Below, in pieces: positions 1 to 6,521 of a stretch of DNA of 6,521 nt (positions are counted from its first letter, which is position 1; every line of letters begins with the position of its first letter). The notes below the pieces were generated by a model that worked only from the letters and a program-made list of their open reading frames with translations, was not told the DNA's origin and ran no database searches. Source of the DNA: a virus (taxonomy: Duplodnaviria; Heunggongvirae; Uroviricota; Caudoviricetes); the IMG/VR virus record IMGVR_UViG_2534681674_000007. The stretch is one strand, 5' to 3'. Made by a program: the position numbers and the translations under genes.

Positions 1-41
1 ATTTTGCTGGCGCGTGAGGAATATAGCCCCGAATAAATCAT
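1..41 (-). CDS. 5' end of a nin-region gene continuing beyond the window start (N-terminal fragment only, MIYSGLYSSRASK...)
   Basis: ATG at 41..39 on - strand lies 9 nt downstream of the NinE stop; frame stays open to position 1. Only 13 codons visible, so identity unknown. Confidence 0.25.
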   Translation of the reverse strand, partial: MIYSGLYSSRASK

Positions 42-49
42 CGCGTCAA

Positions 50-232
50 TCACCTTGTTTTCCTCGCACGATGTCTTAGCCACCGGATATCCCACAGATG
101 AGCCGTGTAGTTGAAGGTTTTTACGTCAGATTCTTTTGGGATTGGCTTGCGTTTATTTCTGGAGCGTTTCGTTGGAAGGTATTTGCAGTTTTCGCAGATG
201 ATGTCGGTGATACTTCTTCGCTGTCGCCTCAT
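50..232 (-). CDS. ninE: NinE-like protein (60 aa)
   Basis: Translation from internal Met ([23 protein letters not shown]...[16 protein letters not shown]) matches my recollection of lambda NinE. ATG at 232..230 overlaps the upstream methyltransferase stop (229..231) in an ATGA coupling motif. The ORF-track start at 322 would overlap the upstream gene by 90 nt and is not preferred. Confidence 0.7.
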
Positions 233-756
233 GCCGCCCTTCTGACGCCCTGCCCGATCGCCATCAATGCCGCTTTGGATACGGTAGTAAACATCCGTCG
301 AGGACTGATGAACGGTCGCCAAATCAGCAGCATGGAGCCTTTGCTGTTTCCCTTCTTCTCCAGCCCCGTCGATGGTTCGATAAAATTAATCCGTCCATCA
401 GTGATAATGCGAACTTCGTCGACACTCTCCAGAGCCTTGCTGAACCATCCGACTGACATATCCTCTGGCACAAGCATCACTACCGTCTGTCGCTGTTGTA
501 TGCACTGCTCAGCGGCTTTTTCCACCCACGGCCTGATATTGCTGTACGGTGGGTTATTCCAGATTGCCCCGTGGCTTATCCACTCAGAATTTAGCGCGTC
601 GTCGGCCTCAGTTAGCCAGTGAGCACACAGAGCATTTTTGTCGCTCGCTGCCGAATCCAGCCAGAATCCAAACTCAATATCCAGTGCATCAAAAAGCCAA
701 AGCGGCGTTTGCCAGCAGTCCTTGTCGTGTGCTGGCGTATTTGATTTGATAGTCAT
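229..756 (-). CDS. phage DNA N6-adenine methyltransferase (Dam-like, orphan MTase)
   Basis: Translation [26 protein letters not shown]...WNNPPYS... carries the NPPY catalytic motif and the DxxCWQTP N-terminal motif of phage Dam-family MTases. ATG at 756..754 overlaps the NinB stop (ATGA). Position between ninB and ninE is typical of lambdoid/Stx-type phages. Confidence 0.85.
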
Positions 757-1196
757 GCTGCCCGATCTCCCCATCGCGCTTTCCATTCGAGAGCCAGTCG
801 AGCTTCGTCTGACCACTTAACGCCACGCTCTGTACCGAATGCCTGTATAAGCTCTAATAGCTCCGCAAATTCGCTTACACGCATCCTGCTGGTTGACTGG
901 CCTATTACCACAAAGCCATTCCCGGCAAGGTTAGGAACAACGTCCTGCTGCTTTAATGCTGCGGTAAACACACACTTCCAGCTTTCTGCATCCAGCCAGC
1001 GACCATGCCATTCAACCTGACGAGAGACGTCACCTAAGCAGGCCCATAGCTTCCTGTTTTGGTCTAAGCTGCGGTTGCGTTCCTGAATGGTTACTACGAT
1101 TGGTTTGGTTGGGTCTGGAAGAATTTGCTGGATAGCTTGAATGGCGTTCTGCTGATGGATGGGGCTTCTTAGTTCAAACGTTAGTTTCCTCACCAT
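753..1196 (-). CDS. ninB: NinB (Orf-family recombination mediator)
   Basis: 147-aa translation (MVRKLTFELRSPIHQQNAIQAIQQILPDPTKPIVVTIQERNRSLDQNRKLWACLGDVSRQVEWHGRW...) is near-identical to lambda NinB as I recall it. Strong SD (AGGAG, 5-nt spacer) upstream of ATG 1196. Confidence 0.9.
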   Translation of the reverse strand: MVRKLTFELRSPIHQQNAIQAIQQILPDPTKPIVVTIQERNRSLDQNRKLWACLGDVSRQVEWHGRWLDAESWKCVFTAALKQQDVVPNLAGNGFVVIGQSTSRMRVSEFAELLELIQAFGTERGVKWSDEARLALEWKARWGDRAA

Positions 1197-1338
1197 TTAC
1201 GCTCCTGTAATCGTCAAGTGCAGCTGCAATAGTCCCTATCTGGTCATGGTCTTGCCCGATAATCTCATTTACGTTTTCATCTTCTTCCACACCGAAAAAG
1301 AATCGCAGGGCTAACATGATTTCTTCGTATGCGCTCAT
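1174..1338 (-). CDS. small acidic hypothetical protein (54 aa, ~13 D/E vs 2 K/R)
   Basis: Not in the ORF track (<60 aa). ATG at 1338..1336 is preceded by AGGAG with a 5-nt spacer; translates MSAYEEIMLALRFFFGVEEDENVNEIIGQDHDQIGTIAAALDDYRSVNGEETNV; stop TGA at 1176..1174. Starts 2 nt after the stop of the upstream 87-aa ORF and overlaps the ninB start by 23 nt. Confidence 0.4.
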   Translation of the reverse strand: MSAYEEIMLALRFFFGVEEDENVNEIIGQDHDQIGTIAAALDDYRSVNGEETNV

Positions 1339-1340
1339 AC

Positions 1341-1604
1341 TCACTCCTTCACTTTGACTCCAGCAGTGCGGATGGCCTCTACATCGCTTTCGTATTGTGA
1401 TTCTGCACCTGTGTCATAGCCAATGTGATAATCACCGGGAAGTGGGCCTTTCTTTGGCTTTTGCAGCTCAATTTCAAAAGCTGCTCGCGATGCCTGCCAC
1501 GCTTGCCAATACATCTCAACCATATTGGCGTATATTTTATTTTTAGGATCACATCCGGTGTAATTTTCAAACCATTCTTCAAACTGCTTTCTTGATTCGT
1601 CCAT
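1341..1604 (-). CDS. hypothetical phage protein (87 aa)
   Basis: Open frame with SD-like GAGGG 8 nt upstream of ATG 1604; tightly packed in the operon between the helicase and ninB. No family recognised from sequence. Confidence 0.5.
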   Translation of the reverse strand: MDESRKQFEEWFENYTGCDPKNKIYANMVEMYWQAWQASRAAFEIELQKPKKGPLPGDYHIGYDTGAESQYESDVEAIRTAGVKVKE

Positions 1605-1621
1605 CGGTACTTACCCTCAGT

Positions 1622-1828
1622 TCAACTCACAAAACGCCACGCCATTTTTGCTACGACAACAGGCATAACACCGATAATCACCCACAGGAAAATGCTACCG
1701 AGAAGCACACCAACCAGGTCTTTACCTTCGCCTAACAACCGGACAAAACTGCTGGCAACCACGATGAACGTCGACACCATCCACATAGCACCGAGAATCC
1801 TCAATGCAGAGAAAATTAACTCAGCCAC
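1622..1828 (-). CDS. small hydrophobic membrane protein (68 aa, two predicted TM helices)
   Basis: GTG start at 1828..1826 preceded by GGGGAGAG (6-nt spacer). Translation shows two hydrophobic stretches (approx. residues 5-28 and 40-60) separated by a short charged loop (RLLGEGKDL). No family recognised. Confidence 0.45.
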   Translation of the reverse strand: MAELIFSALRILGAMWMVSTFIVVASSFVRLLGEGKDLVGVLLGSIFLWVIIGVMPVVVAKMAWRFVS

Positions 1829-1842
1829 GATTTACTCTCCCC

Positions 1843-1875
1843 AAAATAAAAAGGCCTGCGATTACCAGCAGGCCT
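1843..1875 (-). terminator. Rho-independent terminator candidate downstream of the helicase gene (tR2-like position)
   Basis: Perfect 8-bp GC-rich stem (1852..1859 AGGCCTGC / 1868..1875 GCAGGCCT) with an 8-nt loop; on the - strand it is followed by TTTTTATTTT (plus-strand A-run 1841..1851). Lies 26 nt after the helicase stop. Confidence 0.5.
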
Positions 1876-1900
1876 GTTATTAGCTCAGTGATGTAGATGG

Positions 1901-3277
1901 TCATACGTCAGCCCCTTGTGCATATCGTCTGCCACGTGCAGCGGGTGCATTTGATGTTGTGCAAATCTGTCTGGCTTCATCCTGGTCACACGCAACAAAG
2001 TGTCCGTTGCAGAACCGCTGGTAAACCGTACCAAGCGAGCCAAAACGGTTTTTCGTCACGATGATTTCAGCAAATGGCGCGGCGCTACTGTTCTCGTCAT
2101 ATACCGCTTCCCGATAGAGCATGATGATTGAGTCTGCGTCCTGCTCAATGCTTCCTGAATCACGCAAATCTGCGTTTGTCGGGCGTTTATTTGGTCGCTT
2201 CTCAACATCGCGCGAAAGCTGACTCAGGGAGATAACAGGCGTTTTCAGGTCTTTCGCCATCGCCTTCAGGCTTCCGGAGATGTGAGCAATTGCAAGGTCG
2301 TTGCGGTCTGCTTTCGGCTTCTCAATCAGGCCAAGATAATCCGCCATGATGAGTGACAGGTTTGGATTTTCCTGTTTGTGCCGTTCTGCGATTGAGCGTA
2401 TTTCTTCGACCGATAACCGCGATGCATCGACTACCCATACATCCAAATCTGCAAGCTGACTCATGCCGTTAGCAACACGCGCCCAGCCTTCGTCATCCAT
2501 CGATGCAGGATTTCGCAGCACGCTAACCGACATCCTCCCGGCGTTGGCAATGCTCCGCTCTGCAATCTGCAATGCGCTCATTTCCATTGAGAAAATCAAT
2601 ACTCCGCGCCGGACGTCAGAACCAGGAATAACGCGGCTTGCAACACCTTCGGCAATCTTCAGCGCCAGTTCGGTTTTCCCCATACCAGGACGAGCGGCGA
2701 TAATCACCAGGTCTTCCGCGTTCATCCCTCCGGTGATAGCGTCAAGTTCTTCGATTCCGGTCTTCAGGGTATCGGACTCTTCTCCGTTCCTCAGACGCCT
2801 GTCAAGCGTGTCAGTGTAGTCAGTAATGATTTCCCCTAACCGTACAGGTTTAACCTCGTCACTGGGCTTTCTGATGGCTGAAAGACGCTTTACAAGCTCA
2901 TCCATCGCCTGACTCGATGCGTCGATGGTTCCGCTCTGAATTGGTTCACGCATTTCATCCATGATTTCCAGCACCAGACGGCGGTGATAGTTATCCGCGA
3001 CCATTCCGGCATATCCCTTCAGGTTTGCGGCGCTCGGGCAGTTTTTGCTGGTCATCAGGATTGACGTGAAATGCTCCTCTCCGCACGCCTCGGCAACCAT
3101 CAGCGCGTCGATTATGTTTCTGTTTCGCGCCTGCTTGCGGATAACCTCGAAGGCTTTCCGGTAGAGCGGAATTGAAAACGCTTCCGGCTCCAGCGTTGCA
3201 AGAACGTCACTGGCGGTTGGAGTTAATCCACCAATCAGCAGGCCACCGATAACGCTCGCTTCGATATCCTGTCTCAT
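1901..3277 (-). CDS. replicative DNA helicase, DnaB family (phage P22 gene 12-like)
   Basis: 458-aa translation has DnaB hallmarks: N-terminal [13 protein letters not shown], Walker [26 protein letters not shown], and C-terminal [36 protein letters not shown] at 3277..3275 overlaps the upstream gene stop (ATGA); SD GGGGGA upstream. Confidence 0.92.
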
Positions 3278-3846
3278 GCAATCCCCCTGTCTGCAAACTT
3301 CCCTTCCCGTACTCCCGTTAACGAATCTTCCCTCAGCAGGTAATCAAAATCTGCCGTCCAGCCAGTGTCGTTGTCTCCGAAGTAAAACGGCTTGGCCTGA
3401 TGCACAAACGCCCTGACATACGCTCTGAAACCGTCCACGTTTGGCGTTTTCAGTTGTGGGATGATTTTCTTCAGGCGGCGTTTGCGTTTCTCGTTGACCG
3501 CAACAGCGTGTGGCAGTCTGTCACCGACTTCGGTGTTGTAGGCGTTCAGGAAGGATTCGTAGTCGATTCGTTCTGCCTTGCGACGTTCAGGTTTAACCTG
3601 CCCATCGCCTCCCCCATTGGGGGGTAGGGGGGTATTATTTATATTCTTGTTAATACCTTCTTGTTCATGATGTGCGGTTGTTTGTGCGGCTTCATGTGCG
3701 CTTTCATGTGCGGCATGTGCGCTGAAAGCCGCGCCATTACTGTCTTCGTCATGTGCGGCATCATGTGCGGTTGTTTGTGCGGCTTCATGTGCGGGTAAAT
3801 TGTCCATTTTTTGAGCATATTCATGGTAATTTGTGATGGTTATCAC
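3274..3846 (-). CDS. replication initiation protein, lambda O / P22 gp18-like, N-terminally truncated at the IS junction (linker plus C-terminal domain only)
   Basis: ORF opens with GTG at 3846..3844 immediately adjacent to the IS end; the in-frame stop upstream lies inside the IS terminus. The 5' third encodes AH[E/D]AA-type repeats, then an Asn/Gly/Pro-rich linker, then a C-terminal domain (..[25 protein letters not shown]..) resembling phage replication initiator C-termini. Sits immediately upstream of and translationally coupled to the helicase. The N-terminal iteron-binding domain is absent. Confidence 0.6.
3666..3795. repeat. iteron-like tandem array: about 9 copies of (C)ATGTGCG(G) at roughly 12-bp phasing, including an exact 31-bp direct repeat (3670..3700 and 3763..3793)
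   Basis: ATGTGCG at 3670, 3694, 3706, 3715, 3751, 3763, 3787 and TTGTGCG at 3683, 3776. ATGTGCGGTTGTTTGTGCGGCTTCATGTGCG is repeated exactly 93 bp apart. Lies inside the O-like gene and is followed (in the direction of O transcription) by an AT-rich tract at 3633..3655. Confidence 0.6.
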
Positions 3847-3888
3847 TGAACCGCCCCGGGTTTCCTGGAGAGTATTTTATCTGTGAAC

Positions 3889-4776
3889 TCAGGCTGCCAG
3901 ATCATTATTTCCGATGGAAGCATAATAAGCTTTTTCTGCTTCTGCCGGAGGAATATGGCCCAGCCTTTCCAGCAATCGTCGATTGTTATACCAGTCCACC
4001 CACGTTAGTGTGGCCAGTTCCACTTCTGTCCGGTTTTTCCAGCTATTACGGTGTATTACCTCCGCTTTGTAAAGACCATTGATGCTCTCAGCCATCGCGT
4101 TGTCATACGAGTCGCCAGTACTCCCTGTTGATGCCAGTAATCCGGCTTCCTTAAGCCGCTGCGTGTAGGCCAGCGATACATACTGAGAACCTTTATCACT
4201 GTGATGGATTGTGCCGGACGGCCGACGGGCCCACAACGCCTGCTCCAGTGCATCCAGCACGAATGTCGTTTCCATAGACGATGAGACTCGCCACCCCACG
4301 ATACATCCGGCAAACACATCAATGATGAACGCCACATAGACGAAGCCCTGCCATGTGCTGACGTAAGTAAAATCAGCCACCCACAGCTGGTCAGGACGTT
4401 CTGCCACGAACTGACGGTTTACGCGGTCGCCTGCGGAAACGGCTTTCCGGCTGACGGTAGTACGGACCTTTTTACCCCGGAGAACACCGGCAAGTCCCAT
4501 AACCGCCATGAGGCGCGCCACTGTACATCTGGCCACCCTGATACCTTCGCGTAACAACTGGCGCCAGACTTTACGCACACCGTACACCTGATGATTTTCA
4601 TCGTATACGCGCTGTATCTCTCTCTTCAGCCAGTCATCGTGCTGCGCACGGGCACTGCGTTTATCCGGATGATGTCGCTGTTGCTGACAATGGTAATACG
4701 TTGACGGGGCAATATGCAGTTCGCTGCATACCGGTCCGACCCCGTACTGCTCACGCAGCTTATCCAGCAGCGGCAT
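3889..4776 (-). CDS. IS629-like transposase OrfB (DDE catalytic domain, 295 aa)
   Basis: Contains the DDE triad context (..LWVADFTYV.., ..HHSDKGSQYVS.., ..DNAMAESINGLYKAE..) typical of IS3-family integrase-fold transposases. In -1 frame relative to orfA, with overlap at 4776. Confidence 0.9.
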   Translation of the reverse strand: MPLLDKLREQYGVGPVCSELHIAPSTYYHCQQQRHHPDKRSARAQHDDWLKREIQRVYDENHQVYGVRKVWRQLLREGIRVARCTVARLMAVMGLAGVLRGKKVRTTVSRKAVSAGDRVNRQFVAERPDQLWVADFTYVSTWQGFVYVAFIIDVFAGCIVGWRVSSSMETTFVLDALEQALWARRPSGTIHHSDKGSQYVSLAYTQRLKEAGLLASTGSTGDSYDNAMAESINGLYKAEVIHRNSWKNRTEVELATLTWVDWYNNRRLLERLGHIPPAEAEKAYYASIGNNDLAA

Positions 4777-5102
4777 TATTTTTTCCAGAGGCGGTCGAAC
4801 TCCGCCTTCGCAAAATAAGCGGAAGCCTGGCGAAGGATATCGTTACTGCGGCGCAGTTCACGATTTTCACGTTCCAGCTCTTTCAGACGCTGACGTTCAG
4901 CGGTGGTGAGTCCACCATCACCACTCCCGGTATCCCGCTCACGCTGACGAACCCACACACGCAGAGTCTCTGGTGTACAGCCAATCTTTGGGGCAATGGA
5001 ACAAATTGCCGCCCATTGTGAGTCATATTCGCCCTGACTTTCCAGAACCATACGAATCGCCCGCTGACGGACTTCGGGGGAAAAACGAGTATTTTTAGTC
5101 AT
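4776..5102 (-). CDS. IS629-like transposase OrfA (HTH DNA-binding subunit, 108 aa)
   Basis: [51 protein letters not shown]... with a leucine-zipper-like C-terminus ([30 protein letters not shown]), typical of IS3-family OrfA. Ends in AAA AAA TAA overlapping the orfB ATG. Confidence 0.9.
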
Positions 5103-5293
5103 CCTGTTTACCTCTTTCTCAGGGAGTTTAGTCTCCAGGATTTCCGGGGCGGTTCATTACCGATATCGATACATCAGGAATATTTGATTCAGATGATATG
5201 ACTATCAAAGCCGCCTGAGCGCGGCTTTACCGCATACCAATAATGCTTCACGAGAGGCATTTTCGTTATGCAATCAAATATAAGGAGTTACCC

Positions 5294-5428
5294 ATGATGC
5301 ACTTTCAGCTCGCGGGTAGCGGCGTCATGTCCGCTTTCTACCCGCACGAATCTGAATTATCACGCCGAGTTAAACAATTAATCAGAGCAGCAAAGAAACA
5401 ACTGGAGGCGTTATGCGCAATGAAATAG
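5294..5428 (+). CDS. small hypothetical protein (44 aa)
   Basis: ATG 5294 is preceded by TAAGGAG with a 7-nt spacer; translates MMHFQLAGSGVMSAFYPHESELSRRVKQLIRAAKKQLEALCAMK. The ORF-track upstream start at 5243 has no SD. Confidence 0.4.
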   Translation: MMHFQLAGSGVMSAFYPHESELSRRVKQLIRAAKKQLEALCAMK

Positions 5429-5565
5429 CCATTAATCACCAGATGCTTCGTGCTGCACAGAACAAAGCAGTAATAGCCCGATTTATTGGTGATTCAAAAA
5501 TGTGGCTTGAAGCAAATAAAGCGATGAAATCAGCTATCAACCTTCCGTGGTATCGCAGGAAATGA
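5413..5565 (+). CDS. small hypothetical protein (50 aa)
   Basis: Not in ORF track (<60 aa). ATG 5413 is preceded by GGAGG (4-nt spacer); translates MRNEIAINHQMLRAAQNKAVIARFIGDSKMWLEANKAMKSAINLPWYRRK; stop TGA 5563..5565. Confidence 0.4.
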   Translation: MRNEIAINHQMLRAAQNKAVIARFIGDSKMWLEANKAMKSAINLPWYRRK

Positions 5566-5720
5566 GTTTTACAGATAACTGGTCAGACGAAGAATTCATT
5601 CGTCAGATGAAAGATTTAATCGGTAACGAAGGAGATATTCATGTCACTTGCAACCACAGTGAAGGAGAGCAAGTTACAGAGACGCATGTACACGCAGAAA
5701 GCTCTCTGGTATCGCCATAA
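5562..5720 (+). CDS. small hypothetical protein (52 aa), alternative to or overlapping 5641..5811
   Basis: ATG 5562 overlaps the preceding stop (ATGA); weak SD. Translates MSFTDNWSDEEFIRQMKDLIGNEGDIHVTCNHSEGEQVTETHVHAESSLVSP. Overlaps the next candidate in a different frame, so at most one model may be fully correct. Confidence 0.3.
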   Translation: MSFTDNWSDEEFIRQMKDLIGNEGDIHVTCNHSEGEQVTETHVHAESSLVSP

Positions 5721-5811
5721 TGGCGACCGCGAAGGAATGCGGGTATGCCTTAATTTGTCCCGAGTCGAAGTATTAAATCAGCGTTATTTTCTTGGGCCAT
5801 GTCCATTCTGA
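5641..5811 (+). CDS. small hypothetical protein (56 aa), alternative to or overlapping 5562..5720
   Basis: ATG 5641 is preceded by a near-ideal SD (AAGGAG, 6-nt spacer). Translates MSLATTVKESKLQRRMYTQKALWYRHNGDREGMRVCLNLSRVEVLNQRYFLGPCPF; stop TGA 5809..5811, 8 nt before the downstream gene. Confidence 0.35.
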   Translation: MSLATTVKESKLQRRMYTQKALWYRHNGDREGMRVCLNLSRVEVLNQRYFLGPCPF

Positions 5812-5819
5812 GGTGAATT

Positions 5820-6521
5820 ATGGATTTGAACAAATTCGATGAGCCATTCAGCCCTGAAGATATCGAATGGCGAATACAGCAAAGCGGTAAAACACGCGAT
5901 GGAAAGGTGTGGGCTATGGTGCTGGCTTATGTCACGAACAGGGCAATCATGAAACGCCTGGATGATGTTTGCGGCAAAGCAGGATGGCGCAATGAATACC
6001 GCGATATTCCCAACAACGGCGGCGTTGAATGCGGCATATCAATAAAGATTGATTCCGAATGGGTAACCAAATGGGATGCTGCTGAAAACACGCAGGTAGA
6101 AGCCGTCAAAGGTGGTCGTTCCGGTGCAATGAAGCGCGCTGCCGTTCAGTGGGGAATCGGTCGGTATCTGTATAACCTTGAGGAAGGTTTCGCACAAACA
6201 TCTCTCGATAAAAAGCAGGGGTGGCACAGGGCAAAACTGAAGGATGGAACAGGATTTTACTGGCTCCCTCCATCGCTTCCGGGATGGGCAATCCCAGCAT
6301 CAGATAACAAACCATCACCAGAAAATACCAACCAGAAATCTCCATCGGTTGACTGCGAACAAATCCTGAAAGACTTCAGCGATTATGCGTCAACAGAAAC
6401 TGACAAGAAAAAACTCATCGAGCGTTATCAGCGTGACTGGCAATTAATGGCTGGCAACGAGGAAGCGCAGGCTAAATGCGTTCAGGTAATGAACATCAGA
6501 GTTAACGAACTAAAACCGTAA
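5820..6521 (+). CDS. Rad52-like single-strand annealing protein (phage Sak/Rad52 family recombinase)
   Basis: 233-aa ORF with SD AGGTGA upstream of ATG 5820. N-terminal region (..VLAYVTNRAIMKRLDDVCGKAGWRNEY.. and ..VKGGRSGAMKRAAVQWGIGRYLYNL..) follows the conserved Rad52 N-terminal-domain pattern (RLD..G..GW and a K(R)A...G(I)GRYLY-like motif). Assignment from motif recollection, not a search. Confidence 0.65.
   Translation: MDLNKFDEPFSPEDIEWRIQQSGKTRDGKVWAMVLAYVTNRAIMKRLDDVCGKAGWRNEYRDIPNNGGVECGISIKIDSEWVTKWDAAENTQVEAVKGGRSGAMKRAAVQWGIGRYLYNLEEGFAQTSLDKKQGWHRAKLKDGTGFYWLPPSLPGWAIPASDNKPSPENTNQKSPSVDCEQILKDFSDYASTETDKKKLIERYQRDWQLMAGNEEAQAKCVQVMNIRVNELKP

What the first reader, a model, noticed from the sequence alone, without database searches (positions are those of the whole stretch)
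5820..6521. Recombination module uses a Rad52-like annealase rather than a lambda Bet/RecT-type protein
The 233-aa protein carries Rad52 N-terminal-domain-like motifs. Phage SSAPs fall into RecT/Bet, Erf and Rad52/Sak superfamilies. The partner exonuclease or other recombination genes should lie just beyond the right edge of the window. The module remains apparently intact although the regulatory region is deleted.
Basis: partly seen in the sequence, partly recalled or inferred. Interest (0 to 1): 0.35.

Follow-up and report, generated by a model that had tools for sequence, protein, structure and literature searches.

The report
Known Rad52-type prophage annealase gene
This is an ordinary, already-annotated Rad52-family DNA-annealing gene of a lambda-like E. 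coli prophage; it sits at the very end of a draft-assembly contig, so its last codons and its partner genes are missing from the data, not unusual.

Summary
The ORF at 5820-6521 is real and its family assignment is right. Pfam Rad52_Rad22 scores 91.9 bits (cutoff 20.3). A confident AlphaFold model matches only Mgm101 and human RAD52 among solved structures. No ERF or RecT/Bet profile matches.

The gene is well known. It is Sf6 gp28 / mEpX2_034, which RefSeq calls "Rad52/Rad22 family DNA repair protein", and its core region occurs in 397 of 5,426 complete E. coli genomes.

The window is a whole 6,521-bp draft contig (AEZJ02000010.1). Its last 5 bases (CGTAA, including the stop codon) occur in no relative. 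The native protein is 235 aa and ends KQAA. Those 5 bases equal the start of the Cre-lox/454 mate-pair linker.

In 80 near-identical loci the downstream genes are always ssb then abc2 (anti-RecBCD). None has a lambda Exo/RecE-type nuclease. A DnaQ-like 3'-5' exonuclease is present in 21 of 80.

The protein is a chimera: a Rad52 core, a linker, and a three-helix C-terminal domain shared with P22 Erf. That domain has been recombined between ERF and Rad52 cores at least twice.

An IS629-like element without target duplication replaces the immunity region, but an assembly collapse cannot be excluded. Whether the module is intact cannot be judged. Low interest.

The parts
5820..6516 (+). [quoted passage not shown]
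   Evidence: ORF. 100% DNA identity to strain 2013C-4974 up to base 6516. Residues 1-232 are 99-100% identical in 80 IMG/VR loci.
5829..6227 (+). Rad52/Rad22-type annealase core (aa 4-136 by Pfam; the structured N-terminal domain extends to about aa 160, nt 6299)
   Evidence: PF04098 E=4.9e-26. AF2 model pLDDT 84.7. Foldseek hits to Mgm101 9yi9 (E=2e-4) and human RAD52 8bjm/5jrb/1h2i/1kn0.
6303..6344 (+). Disordered, Pro/Ser/Asn-rich linker (aa 162-175); the mosaic joint between core and C-terminal domain
   Evidence: pLDDT below 50 for aa 162-175. Variable in length and sequence across the family. Homology to P22 Erf starts here.
6345..6516 (+). C-terminal three-helix domain (aa 176-232 of a native 235), shared with P22 Erf; truncated by the contig end
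   Evidence: 63% identity to the P22 Erf C-terminus, E=4e-29. tblastn hits in 117 phage records. AF2 model of the domain alone has pLDDT 88.6 and three helices.
6517..6521 (+). Five non-native bases (CGTAA) that create the apparent Pro233 and the TAA stop; contig-end artefact or unique junction
   Evidence: Absent from all relatives. Equal to the first 5 nt of the mate-pair linker CGTAATAACTTCG....
5547..5811 (+). Two overlapping small ORFs (57 and 56 aa; homologs of Sf6 gp30/gp29 and HK97 gp42.1/gp42) in the position that arf occupies in P22
   Evidence: phrog_2123 and phrog_1723. Present upstream of the SSAP in 72 of 80 loci. No homology to P22 Arf.
5294..5565 (+). cIII and kil, the early-left operon genes upstream of the recombination genes
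   Evidence: Pfam cIII E=4.6e-30 and Lambda_Kil E=1.7e-20; gene calls.
3847..5156 (-). IS3-family element (IS629/IS1203-like, 1,310 bp) with no target-site duplication (flanks CAC / TTA). It replaces the segment from the N-terminal part of O to the ea10-like gene, which includes cII, cro, cI, N and pL/pR
   Evidence: Inverted ends TGAACCGCCCCGG.... NCBIfam transpos_IS3. The window lacks L001 6072-12000.
3274..3846 (-). 3' remnant of the replication initiator O gene (190 codons)
   Evidence: Matches positions 110-295 of 297 of phrog_345. 100% identical to L001 up to the IS junction.
753..1196 (-). ninB/orf recombination mediator in the nin region; a separate recombination function of the same prophage
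   Evidence: Pfam NinB E=2.4e-54.

Best explanation
The ORF encodes the single-strand annealing protein (SSAP) of a lambdoid prophage with an Sf6/mEpX2-type recombination module. It has two domains. Residues 1 to about 160 form a Rad52/Sak-type core that, by homology, assembles into rings, binds ssDNA in a basic groove and anneals complementary strands. A disordered linker (aa 162-175) leads to a small three-helix C-terminal domain (aa 176-235) that is also found on P22 Erf.

In intact relatives the gene lies in the early-left (pL) operon in the order cIII - kil - two small ORFs - SSAP - ssb - (optional DnaQ-like 3'-5' exonuclease, HNH or gp26-type endonuclease) - abc2. The inferred pathway has three steps:
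1. Abc2 binds RecC and reprograms host RecBCD to resect DNA ends.
2. The phage or host SSB coats the ssDNA.
3. The SSAP, probably recruited through its C-terminal domain, anneals it to a complementary strand. This gives RecA-independent recombination for genome circularisation, concatemer formation and mosaic exchange.

Shown here: family, fold, domain structure, synteny in relatives, prevalence. Inferred: ring formation, annealing activity, the role of the C-terminal domain, the order of events.

In this record the gene sits at the end of a draft contig. Its native last three codons (Q-A-A) and stop are replaced by 5 foreign bases. As assembled, an IS629-like element has removed pL, N and the immunity region, so the gene is most likely a silent remnant in a defective prophage.
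For: Family and fold:
- Pfam Rad52_Rad22 scores 91.9 bits; no ERF or RecT hit.
- AF2 model pLDDT 84.7.
- The PDB fold search gives only Mgm101 and RAD52 with E below 0.01.
- BFVD top hits are Rad52/59/22 phage proteins, E down to 5e-20.

Already annotated:
- The same gene is annotated 'Rad52/Rad22 family DNA repair protein' in RefSeq and in mEpX2.
- Its core region is in 397 of 5,426 complete E. coli genomes.

Synteny and partners:
- ssb then abc2 follow in 80 of 80 loci.
- The interval is fully accounted for, leaving no room for a lambda Exo/RecE gene.
- Partner domains: SSB PF00436, Rv2179c-like exonuclease PF16473, Anti-RecBCD_p2 PF11043.

C-terminal domain:
- Shared with P22 Erf, whose core is PF04404.

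Contig end and deletion:
- Contig-end status and the unique tail.
- IS junctions and the missing immunity region.
- No promoter enrichment upstream: 2 sites found against 2.7 expected.

Literature on mechanism:
- Abc2 converts RecBCD for recombination, and the SSB C-tail stimulates the neighbouring SSAP in HK620 (PMC5928155).
- Lambdoid Rec modules with SSB-1, DnaQ-like nucleases and Abc2 are catalogued (PMC12315714).
Against: - No biochemical data exist for this protein or for Sf6 gp28.
- Sequence-only searches do not reach any solved RAD52, and hhalign to human RAD52 failed. DNA-binding residues could therefore not be mapped.
- The isolated C-terminal domain has no significant structural neighbour (best E=1.8), so its partner-docking role rests on analogy only.
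- Silence of the gene is inferred from loss of pL/N and a consensus promoter scan, not measured.
- The deletion itself could be an assembly artefact.
Confidence: 0.85

Rival explanations
1. The 233-aa form is genuine. A rearrangement in this strain (for example a 25-nt deletion joining ...CTAAAAC to nucleotide 15 of ssb, CGTAAATAAGG, or an insertion or mosaic junction) truncates the annealase by two residues and removes the ssb start.
For: CGTAA does occur 25 nt further on in the reference sequence, within the first codons of ssb. IS elements do land in this neighbourhood in other strains: near the ssb start in TW10590 and in the exonuclease gene in 2013C-4974. Contigs often break at rearrangement or repeat boundaries.
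Against: A 5-mer recurring within about 50 nt is expected by chance about 5% of the time. The AGGCG direct repeat that could mediate a deletion would give a different product (AAAACAGGCGTAAAT). No other genome or viral contig has this junction. The same 5 bases equal the start of the Cre-lox mate-pair linker.
Confidence: 0.3
2. The protein is an Erf-family annealase, as PHROGs ('Erf-like ssDNA annealing protein') and several GenBank records ('Erf', 'similar to P22 Erf') label it.
For: phrog_1097 E=4e-129 carries that label. The Sf6 annotation says 'similar to phage P22 Erf'. The C-terminal 76 aa are 63% identical to P22 Erf.
Against: The similarity to Erf is confined to the C-terminal domain. 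The core gives no Pfam ERF hit, whereas P22 Erf scores 157 bits on ERF. Fold searches rank Rad52 proteins 15 orders of magnitude ahead of ERF proteins.
Confidence: 0.03
3. The 'deleted regulatory region' is an assembly artefact. The strain has two IS629-like copies in direct orientation flanking an intact immunity region, and the assembler collapsed them into one. In that case the recombination genes would still be under pL/N control.
For: The contig passes through a 1.3-kb element that has dozens of copies in related genomes. There is no target-site duplication (CAC vs TTA), which is exactly what two independent insertions would leave at the outer junctions. The rest of the contig is 100% identical to a prophage whose immunity region is intact.
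Against: The same junctions are equally explained by a real IS-IS recombination or an IS-mediated adjacent deletion, both common in IS-rich pathogenic E. coli. Assemblers usually break at multicopy repeats instead of bridging them wrongly. No second contig could be inspected.
Confidence: 0.3
4. The annealase works as a classical two-component recombinase with a dedicated 5'-3' exonuclease (lambda Exo/RecE-like) encoded just downstream.
For: This is the commonest textbook arrangement. Some relatives do carry an 'exonuclease' gene two genes downstream.
Against: That exonuclease is a DnaQ/Rv2179c-like 3'-5' enzyme (PF16473), present in only 21 of 80 loci. The SSAP-abc2 interval has no unassigned space except an HNH endonuclease in 11 loci. 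abc2 is present in 80 of 80, which points to RecBCD as the resection machine.
Confidence: 0.05

Closest known systems
Shigella phage Sf6 gp28, Escherichia phage mEpX2 gp034, and E. coli RefSeq protein WP_000365280.1 ('Rad52/Rad22 family DNA repair protein')
   Same: Same gene: 96-100% DNA identity, the same upstream cIII-kil-small-ORF block, the same domain structure.
   Different: Those are 235 aa ending KQAA and are followed by ssb. The window copy ends 5 bases after the last shared base, with a foreign tail and no downstream sequence.
Eukaryotic RAD52 N-terminal domain and yeast mitochondrial Mgm101
   Same: Same Pfam family (PF04098). They are the best and only significant structural matches to the predicted core.
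   Different: 13-15% sequence identity; TM-scores of only 0.3-0.5; no detectable pairwise or profile sequence match to PDB chains. The eukaryotic C-terminal RPA/RAD51-binding region is replaced here by a 60-aa three-helix domain.
Phage Sak / Sak3-type Rad52-like SSAPs (e.g. lactococcal phage ul36 Sak; Lopes et al. 2010, PMC2896510)
   Same: Phage-borne Rad52-family annealases in recombination or replication modules, often next to an ssb gene.
   Different: Not compared directly here (no ul36 sequence in hand). Sak3-labelled proteins rank below Rad52-labelled ones in the fold search (E=1e-6 against 5e-20).
Salmonella phage P22 Erf (with Arf, Abc1, Abc2)
   Same: Same position in the early-left operon; the same C-terminal domain (63% identity, and up to about 91% to some family members); the same abc2 partner.
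   Different: The annealase core belongs to a different Pfam family (ERF PF04404). P22 has arf and abc1 and no ssb; this module has ssb and lacks arf and abc1 homologs.
Phage HK620 hkaM-sak4-ssb-abc2 module (PMC5928155)
   Same: Same module logic: small ORF - SSAP - cognate SSB - Abc2. It gives experimental precedent that the adjacent SSB's C-tail stimulates the SSAP.
   Different: The HK620 annealase is a RecA/Rad51-like Sak4, and its SSB is a DUF669 type. Neither is homologous to the proteins here.
Lambda Red (Exo, Bet, Gam)
   Same: Same genomic slot downstream of cIII/kil and the same overall task. Bet shares the Rad52-superfamily fold at long range (Bet-labelled hits at E=5e-3).
   Different: No Bet/RecT profile match. 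No lambda Exo partner. RecBCD is modified by Abc2, not blocked by Gam.

Membership tests
Rad52/Rad22 (Pfam PF04098) single-strand annealing proteins | Significant match of the N-terminal domain to the family profile, above the curated threshold | tested here: met
   E=4.9e-26, 91.9 bits against a cutoff of 20.3; aa 4-136 cover profile positions 7-153 of 153. The precomputed PF04098 assignment holds for all 120 listed homologs.
Rad52/Rad22 (Pfam PF04098) single-strand annealing proteins | Rad52-type core fold (beta-sheet plus helix, with beta-hairpin) | tested here: met
   AF2 model with pLDDT 84.7 and topology E-E-H-E-E-E-H. Foldseek probability 0.95-1.00 to Mgm101 and human RAD52, with no other fold at E below 0.01. 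This rests on a predicted structure, not an experimental one.
Rad52/Rad22 (Pfam PF04098) single-strand annealing proteins | Conserved basic residues lining the ssDNA-binding groove (human R55, K152, R153 equivalents) | tested here: inconclusive
   The family has invariant R41, K105 and R106, which are plausible equivalents. However, hhalign to human RAD52 gave no usable alignment (probability 0.6%), so equivalence is not shown.
Rad52/Rad22 (Pfam PF04098) single-strand annealing proteins | Oligomeric ring formation and ATP-independent annealing of complementary ssDNA | not testable with these tools
   Needs purified protein (EM, mass photometry, annealing assays).
ERF family (Pfam PF04404; P22 Erf) | Match of the annealase core to the ERF profile | tested here: not met
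   No ERF hit at E up to 0.1. P22 Erf itself scores 157 bits. BLASTP alignment to P22 Erf covers only aa 157-232.
ERF family (Pfam PF04404; P22 Erf) | P22-Erf-type C-terminal domain | tested here: met
   63% identity over 76 aa, E=4e-29. This domain is not part of the Pfam ERF model and is not specific to ERF cores.
RecT / Red-beta (Bet) family | Match to the RecT or Bet profiles, or closest structural neighbours being RecT/Red-beta | tested here: not met
   No Pfam hit. No Red-beta or RecT structure among the top 50 PDB matches. RecT- and Bet-labelled viral models appear only at E=5e-4 to 5e-3, behind the Rad52, Sak3 and ERF ones.
Lambda-Red-type two-component recombinase (SSAP plus adjacent 5'-3' exonuclease) | A lambda Exo/RecE (YqaJ)-type exonuclease gene adjacent to the SSAP | tested here: not met
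   Not testable in the window itself (contig end). In relatives, none appears in the annotated loci L001, L002, L003, L005, and there is no unassigned coding space in 80 loci.
P22/Sf6-type Rec module that uses Abc2-modified RecBCD | An abc2 (Anti-RecBCD_p2, PF11043) gene in the same operon downstream of the SSAP | tested here: inconclusive
   Met in 80 of 80 near-identical loci and in L001, L002, L003, L005. The window ends before this position, so presence in this strain is only inferred.
P22/Sf6-type Rec module that uses Abc2-modified RecBCD | Arf and Abc1 accessory proteins as in P22 | tested here: not met
   No Pfam Phage_Arf match for the small upstream ORFs, and only a 7-residue BLAST match. 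No Abc1 homolog in any of the 80 loci.

The most novel reading that the evidence does not exclude
The 60-residue three-helix C-terminal domain is a portable cassette. It travels independently of the annealase core and specifies which partner (SSB tail, Abc2-RecBCD, or a host factor) the annealase is coupled to.

The evidence is in the identities. The domain of P22 Erf (ERF core) is about 91% identical to that of some Rad52-core proteins. A second subtype is about 87% identical between an ERF-core and a Rad52-core protein. Yet the two ERF-core proteins share only about 45% in this domain. This implies at least two recombination events at the disordered linker.

The domain matches no Pfam family at or near its curated cutoff (the only weak hit is Swm2, E=0.1, 13 bits against a cutoff of 25) and has no significant structural neighbour. 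Zheng et al. 2025 explicitly left 'shuffling of partner interaction domains' unanalysed (PMC12315714).
Probability: 0.45. Interest if true: 0.35.

Novelty: already known. Interest (0 to 1): 0.12.

Why it matters
There is little new here. The gene is a common, correctly annotated prophage annealase. Lambdoid recombination modules built from a Rad52-type SSAP, SSB, optional nucleases and Abc2 were catalogued in 2025.

The practical lessons are technical:
- The window is a whole draft contig.
- The apparent stop codon is made of 5 foreign bases, possibly mate-pair linker.
- Claims about what lies 'beyond the edge', or about a deletion bridged by a multicopy IS, need the reads.

The one modestly interesting thread is the C-terminal domain shared between ERF and Rad52 cores. 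If it is the partner-docking element, it would explain how unrelated annealase cores plug into the same SSB/Abc2-RecBCD machinery. It could also guide the engineering of portable recombineering proteins.

Tried and rejected
1. Sequence-only links to solved structures. phmmer and a 50-sequence family profile found no RAD52 chain. The family profile is too narrow (Neff 2.2), so no residue mapping is claimed.
2. C-terminal domain as a Red-beta-CTD / lambda-Orf-like bundle. The domain-only AF2 model was confident, but Foldseek gave only generic helical bundles (best E=1.8) and no Red-beta or Orf entry in the top 50. Pfam gave nothing meaningful. Weak colicin E2/E3/E9 coiled-coil hits (E=0.015) are treated as coiled-coil noise.
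3. WW domain in aa 129-164. This was suggested by a Prp40 hit at E=0.1 and three short strands in the model, but there was no Pfam WW hit even at E up to 10. Not claimed.
4. The small upstream ORFs as Arf. No Pfam Phage_Arf match and only a 7-residue motif. Rejected.
5. Finding the downstream sequence of the source strain. The exact-protein look-up returned only this contig. The exact 28-mer scan of genome contigs found nothing. The accession was not found in the literature.
6. Distribution of the C-terminal domain with a single 64-aa query. This gave only 14 clusters at 50% identity, mostly fragments, plus one spurious 1,674-aa Ig-repeat protein. It was enough to show further ERF-core carriers, but not a census.
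7. Own promoter for the stranded genes. The consensus scan found 2 sites against 2.7 expected by chance. No evidence.
Full report
OBSERVATION. The + strand carries an ORF from ATG 5820 to TAA 6519-6521 that encodes 233 aa. Residues 4-136 match Pfam PF04098 (Rad52_Rad22) at E=4.9e-26, 91.9 bits against a curated cutoff of 20.3. They cover profile positions 7-153 of 153, and no ERF, RecT or Bet model matches. The 'Rad52-like motifs' are therefore real and far beyond chance. PHROGs places the protein in phrog_1097 (E=4e-129), which is labelled 'Erf-like ssDNA annealing protein'. NCBIfam has no model for it.

THE WINDOW IS A WHOLE CONTIG AND ITS LAST FIVE BASES ARE FOREIGN. The exact-protein look-up shows that the window is the complete 6,521-bp contig AEZJ02000010.1 of draft assembly GCA_000194215.2, and that this exact 233-aa protein is recorded on no other contig. 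Alignment with three relatives shows identity up to base 6516. After that the window reads CGTAA, where all the others read AGGCGGCATAA followed immediately by the ATG of ssb. Several searches agree:
- None of 400 matching E. coli records extends past base 6516.
- An exact search of one genome per species found nothing.
- Of 80 IMG/VR loci that match residues 1-232 at 99-100% identity, 79 encode a 235-aa protein ending KQAA or KQVA, and one has a CAG>TAG nonsense change. None has the window's tail.
- Across a 50-member family alignment the C-terminus is ...ELK(Q/K)AA.

The native protein is therefore 235 aa, and the '233 aa' and the stop codon come from the contig end. Two post-hoc explanations exist for CGTAA. 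First, it equals the first five bases of the Cre-lox mate-pair / 454 paired-end linker 5'-CGTAATAACTTCG... (sequence confirmed in PMC5199103). Second, it recurs 25 nt downstream inside the start of ssb, so a 25-nt deletion would also produce it; a chance recurrence there is about 5% likely. I favour an artefact, but five bases cannot decide.

FOLD. An AlphaFold2 model built on 50 homologs is confident (mean pLDDT 84.7). It has three parts:
- a structured N-terminal domain (strands 15-24, 30-38, 56-63, 68-77 and 80-89; helices 40-51 and 93-110; and a small three-stranded element at 126-149);
- a disordered linker (aa 162-175, pLDDT below 50);
- three C-terminal helices (aa 179-230).

Foldseek against the PDB returns, at E below 0.01, only yeast Mgm101 (9yi9, 9yi6, 9yi7; E=2-6e-4; TM up to 0.49) and human RAD52 (8bjm, 5jrb, 8rjw, 1h2i, 5xrz, 1kn0). 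Red-beta and RecT structures are absent from the top 50. Against predicted viral structures the order is Rad52/59/22 proteins (E=5e-20 to 1e-7), then SAK3 (1e-6), ERF (1.6e-4), RecT (4.6e-4) and Bet (5e-3). This is the gradient expected for a member of the Rad52 family inside the wider Rad52 SSAP superfamily (PMC2896510; PMC11783212, which counts 1,178 bacterial Rad52-family proteins and finds RecT/Red-beta clearly separated from Rad52, Erf and Sak3). Sequence-only comparisons do not reach solved RAD52, so I do not claim residue equivalences. The invariant R41, K105 and R106 of the family are only candidates for the DNA-binding groove.

IT IS A KNOWN GENE. The cIII-to-SSAP block is 100% identical to a prophage at ybhC in E. 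coli 2013C-4974. It is 96-98% identical to phages mEpX2, ECP1, mEp235, Sf6, IME10 and HK75. RefSeq names the protein 'Rad52/Rad22 family DNA repair protein' (WP_000365280.1). GenBank mEpX2 names it 'Rad52/22 family double-strand break repair protein'. The 2003 Sf6 record calls gp28 'putative recombination protein; similar to phage P22 Erf'. The core-coding 421 bases occur in 397 of 5,426 complete E. coli genomes at 95% identity or better. More than 5,500 clusters at 90% identity match the protein, across Enterobacterales.

WHAT LIES DOWNSTREAM IN RELATIVES. In 2013C-4974 and mEpX2 the order is SSAP, then ssb (PF00436), then a 182-aa Rv2179c/DnaQ-like 3'-5' exonuclease (PF16473, E=1e-73), then abc2 (Anti-RecBCD_p2, PF11043). 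In Sf6 it is SSAP, ssb, gp26 (phrog_2340 'endonuclease'), abc2. In the 80 IMG/VR loci, ssb and abc2 follow in 80 of 80. The 3'-5' exonuclease is present in 21 and a gp26-like gene in 22. The SSAP-to-abc2 interval is fully explained by these genes in 69 loci. In the other 11 it holds one extra ORF, an HNH_3 endonuclease. A lambda Exo/RecE-type 5'-3' exonuclease has no room there. This agrees with the 2025 survey of 246 lambdoid Rec modules, which lists seven SAP sequence types of the Rad52/Beta/Erf/RecT family, SSB-1 of Sf6/ES18, DnaQ-like 3'-5' and HNH nucleases, and Abc2 (PMC12315714). These 80 loci are near-identical alleles and so are not independent samples.

LIKELY MECHANISM (inferred). 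By analogy with P22 and HK620, Abc2 binds RecC and converts RecBCD into a resection machine for phage recombination (Murphy 2000, as cited in PMC5928155). SSB coats the ssDNA, and its acidic tail recruits or stimulates the neighbouring SSAP (shown for HK620 Sak4/SSB, PMC5928155). The Rad52-type rings then anneal complementary strands. None of this has been tested for this protein.

A DOMAIN CHIMERA. BLASTP against P22 Erf aligns only aa 157-232 (63% identity, E=4e-29). The P22 Erf core is PF04404 (157 bits), and the window protein has no ERF match. The C-terminal 66 aa find 117 phage records by tblastn, including both Rad52-core proteins (Sf6, ST64T, ES18, epsilon34) and P22-type Erf. Identities show that domain subtypes cross the core boundary:
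- P22 Erf against the Rad52-core protein P0003: 77% including the linker, about 91% in the helices.
- ERF-core P0130 against Rad52-core P0044: about 87% in the helices.
- The two ERF-core proteins against each other: about 45% in this domain.

So cores and C-terminal domains have been recombined at the linker at least twice. This explains the 'Erf' labels. The domain matches no Pfam family at or near its curated cutoff; the only weak hit is Swm2 at E=0.1. It has no significant structural neighbour, and a single-sequence search of 1.8 billion representatives finds only 14 clusters. A partner-docking role is plausible, but it rests on analogy with the Red-beta C-terminal domain (PMC5052646, PMC8303780). 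Zheng et al. mention such shuffling as likely but left it unanalysed.

CONTEXT IN THE CONTIG. From left to right the contig carries ninE, dam, ninB, three small ORFs, an intact dnaB-type helicase and the last 190 codons of O. A 1,310-bp IS3-family element follows (3847-5156; ends TGAACCGCCCCGG...; transposase on the minus strand). After it come the last bases of an ea10-like gene, cIII, kil, two small overlapping ORFs and the SSAP. Outside the IS, every segment is 100% identical to the 2013C-4974 prophage: window 1-2417 = L001 913-3329, window 2416-3846 = L001 4641-6071, and window 5156-6516 = L001 12001-13361. L001 6072-12000 is missing. That stretch holds the O N-terminus, cII, cro, the cI-like repressor, a kinase, N and most of the ea10-like gene.

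The IS flanks (CAC and TTA) are not a target duplication. This fits either recombination between two IS copies or an adjacent deletion. It fits equally well an assembler collapsing two IS copies that still flank the immunity region, and I cannot separate these. If the deletion is real, pL, N and the nut sites are gone, the IS transposase reads away from the genes, and a consensus scan finds no excess of promoters. The SSAP gene would then be a silent remnant of a defective prophage. In 2013C-4974 the same prophage has IS copies in dnaB and in the 3'-5' exonuclease gene instead. 'Module intact' therefore cannot be assumed for the window's strain.

VERDICT. The 233-aa length and stop codon are an end-of-contig effect. 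The expected partner is SSB plus Abc2-modified RecBCD, not a Red-type exonuclease. The gene is common and already annotated. The only mildly new point is the quantified evidence that the Erf-type C-terminal domain has been exchanged between ERF and Rad52 cores more than once.

Noticed in passing
window 6517-6521: The contig's last five bases (CGTAA) equal the first five of the Cre-lox mate-pair / 454 paired-end linker CGTAATAACTTCG... (PMC5199103). This may be untrimmed linker at a contig end, and it creates a false stop codon.
   Followed up: partly
window 3847-5156 and flanks; L001 6072-12000: An IS629/IS1203-like element without target-site duplication sits where 5.9 kb of immunity region (O N-terminus, cII, cro, cI, kinase, N) lies in the otherwise 100%-identical prophage of strain 2013C-4974. 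That strain instead has IS copies in dnaB and in the exonuclease gene. A real deletion and an assembly collapse could not be told apart.
   Followed up: partly
L001 13373-13879; L003 6373-6879; compare L002 6118-6591: The phage SSB next to the SSAP in 2013C-4974 and mEpX2 has the canonical partner-binding motif DFDDDIPF followed by 15 extra residues (APVTLPFPRHAIHAI), so the Phe is not C-terminal. The Sf6 SSB ends normally in DDSDIPF. This could change which partners the tail can bind.
   Followed up: no
window 5547-5720 and 5641-5811: Two overlapping small ORFs (homologs of HK97 gp42.1/gp42 and Sf6 gp30/gp29) occupy the slot of P22 arf. PHROGs labels them 'recombinase', but they have no Pfam family and no real similarity to Arf. 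They accompany the SSAP in 72 of 80 related loci.
   Followed up: partly
window 6204-6311 (aa 129-164 of the SSAP): A WW-domain-like pattern (GW...FYW.PP.LP.WA.P, with invariant W148, P151, P154, W156) gives a weak phmmer hit to Prp40 WW domains (E=0.1) and is modelled as three short strands. There was no Pfam WW hit even at E up to 10.
   Followed up: partly
L020 5709-6176 (and 10 other IMG/VR loci): A 155-aa HNH_3 homing-type endonuclease with an HTH tail is inserted exactly between the SSAP stop codon and ssb in 11 of 80 related loci.
   Followed up: yes
L005 10373-11738 (E. coli TW10590): Another IS3-family element is inserted just inside the start of the ssb region, immediately downstream of an intact SSAP gene. 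The SSAP/ssb neighbourhood is hit by IS elements repeatedly in different strains.
   Followed up: no
L076 (IMG/VR), codon 233 of the SSAP: One natural allele has a CAG>TAG nonsense change that removes the last three residues (QAA), similar in effect to the window's artefactual end.
   Followed up: no
window 1341-1604 (minus strand): An 87-aa ORF between ninB and the helicase gives a sub-threshold Glyoxalase_4 hit (E=3e-4, 21.4 bits against a cutoff of 27). The gene catalogue assigns it to PF26207 Phage_phiTE_015. Function unknown.
   Followed up: no
alignment A4 (C-terminal domain profile): The C-terminal-domain profile weakly matches the coiled-coil receptor-binding region of colicins E2/E3/E9 (E=0.015-0.12, about 24 residues). 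This is probably helical-repeat noise.
   Followed up: no
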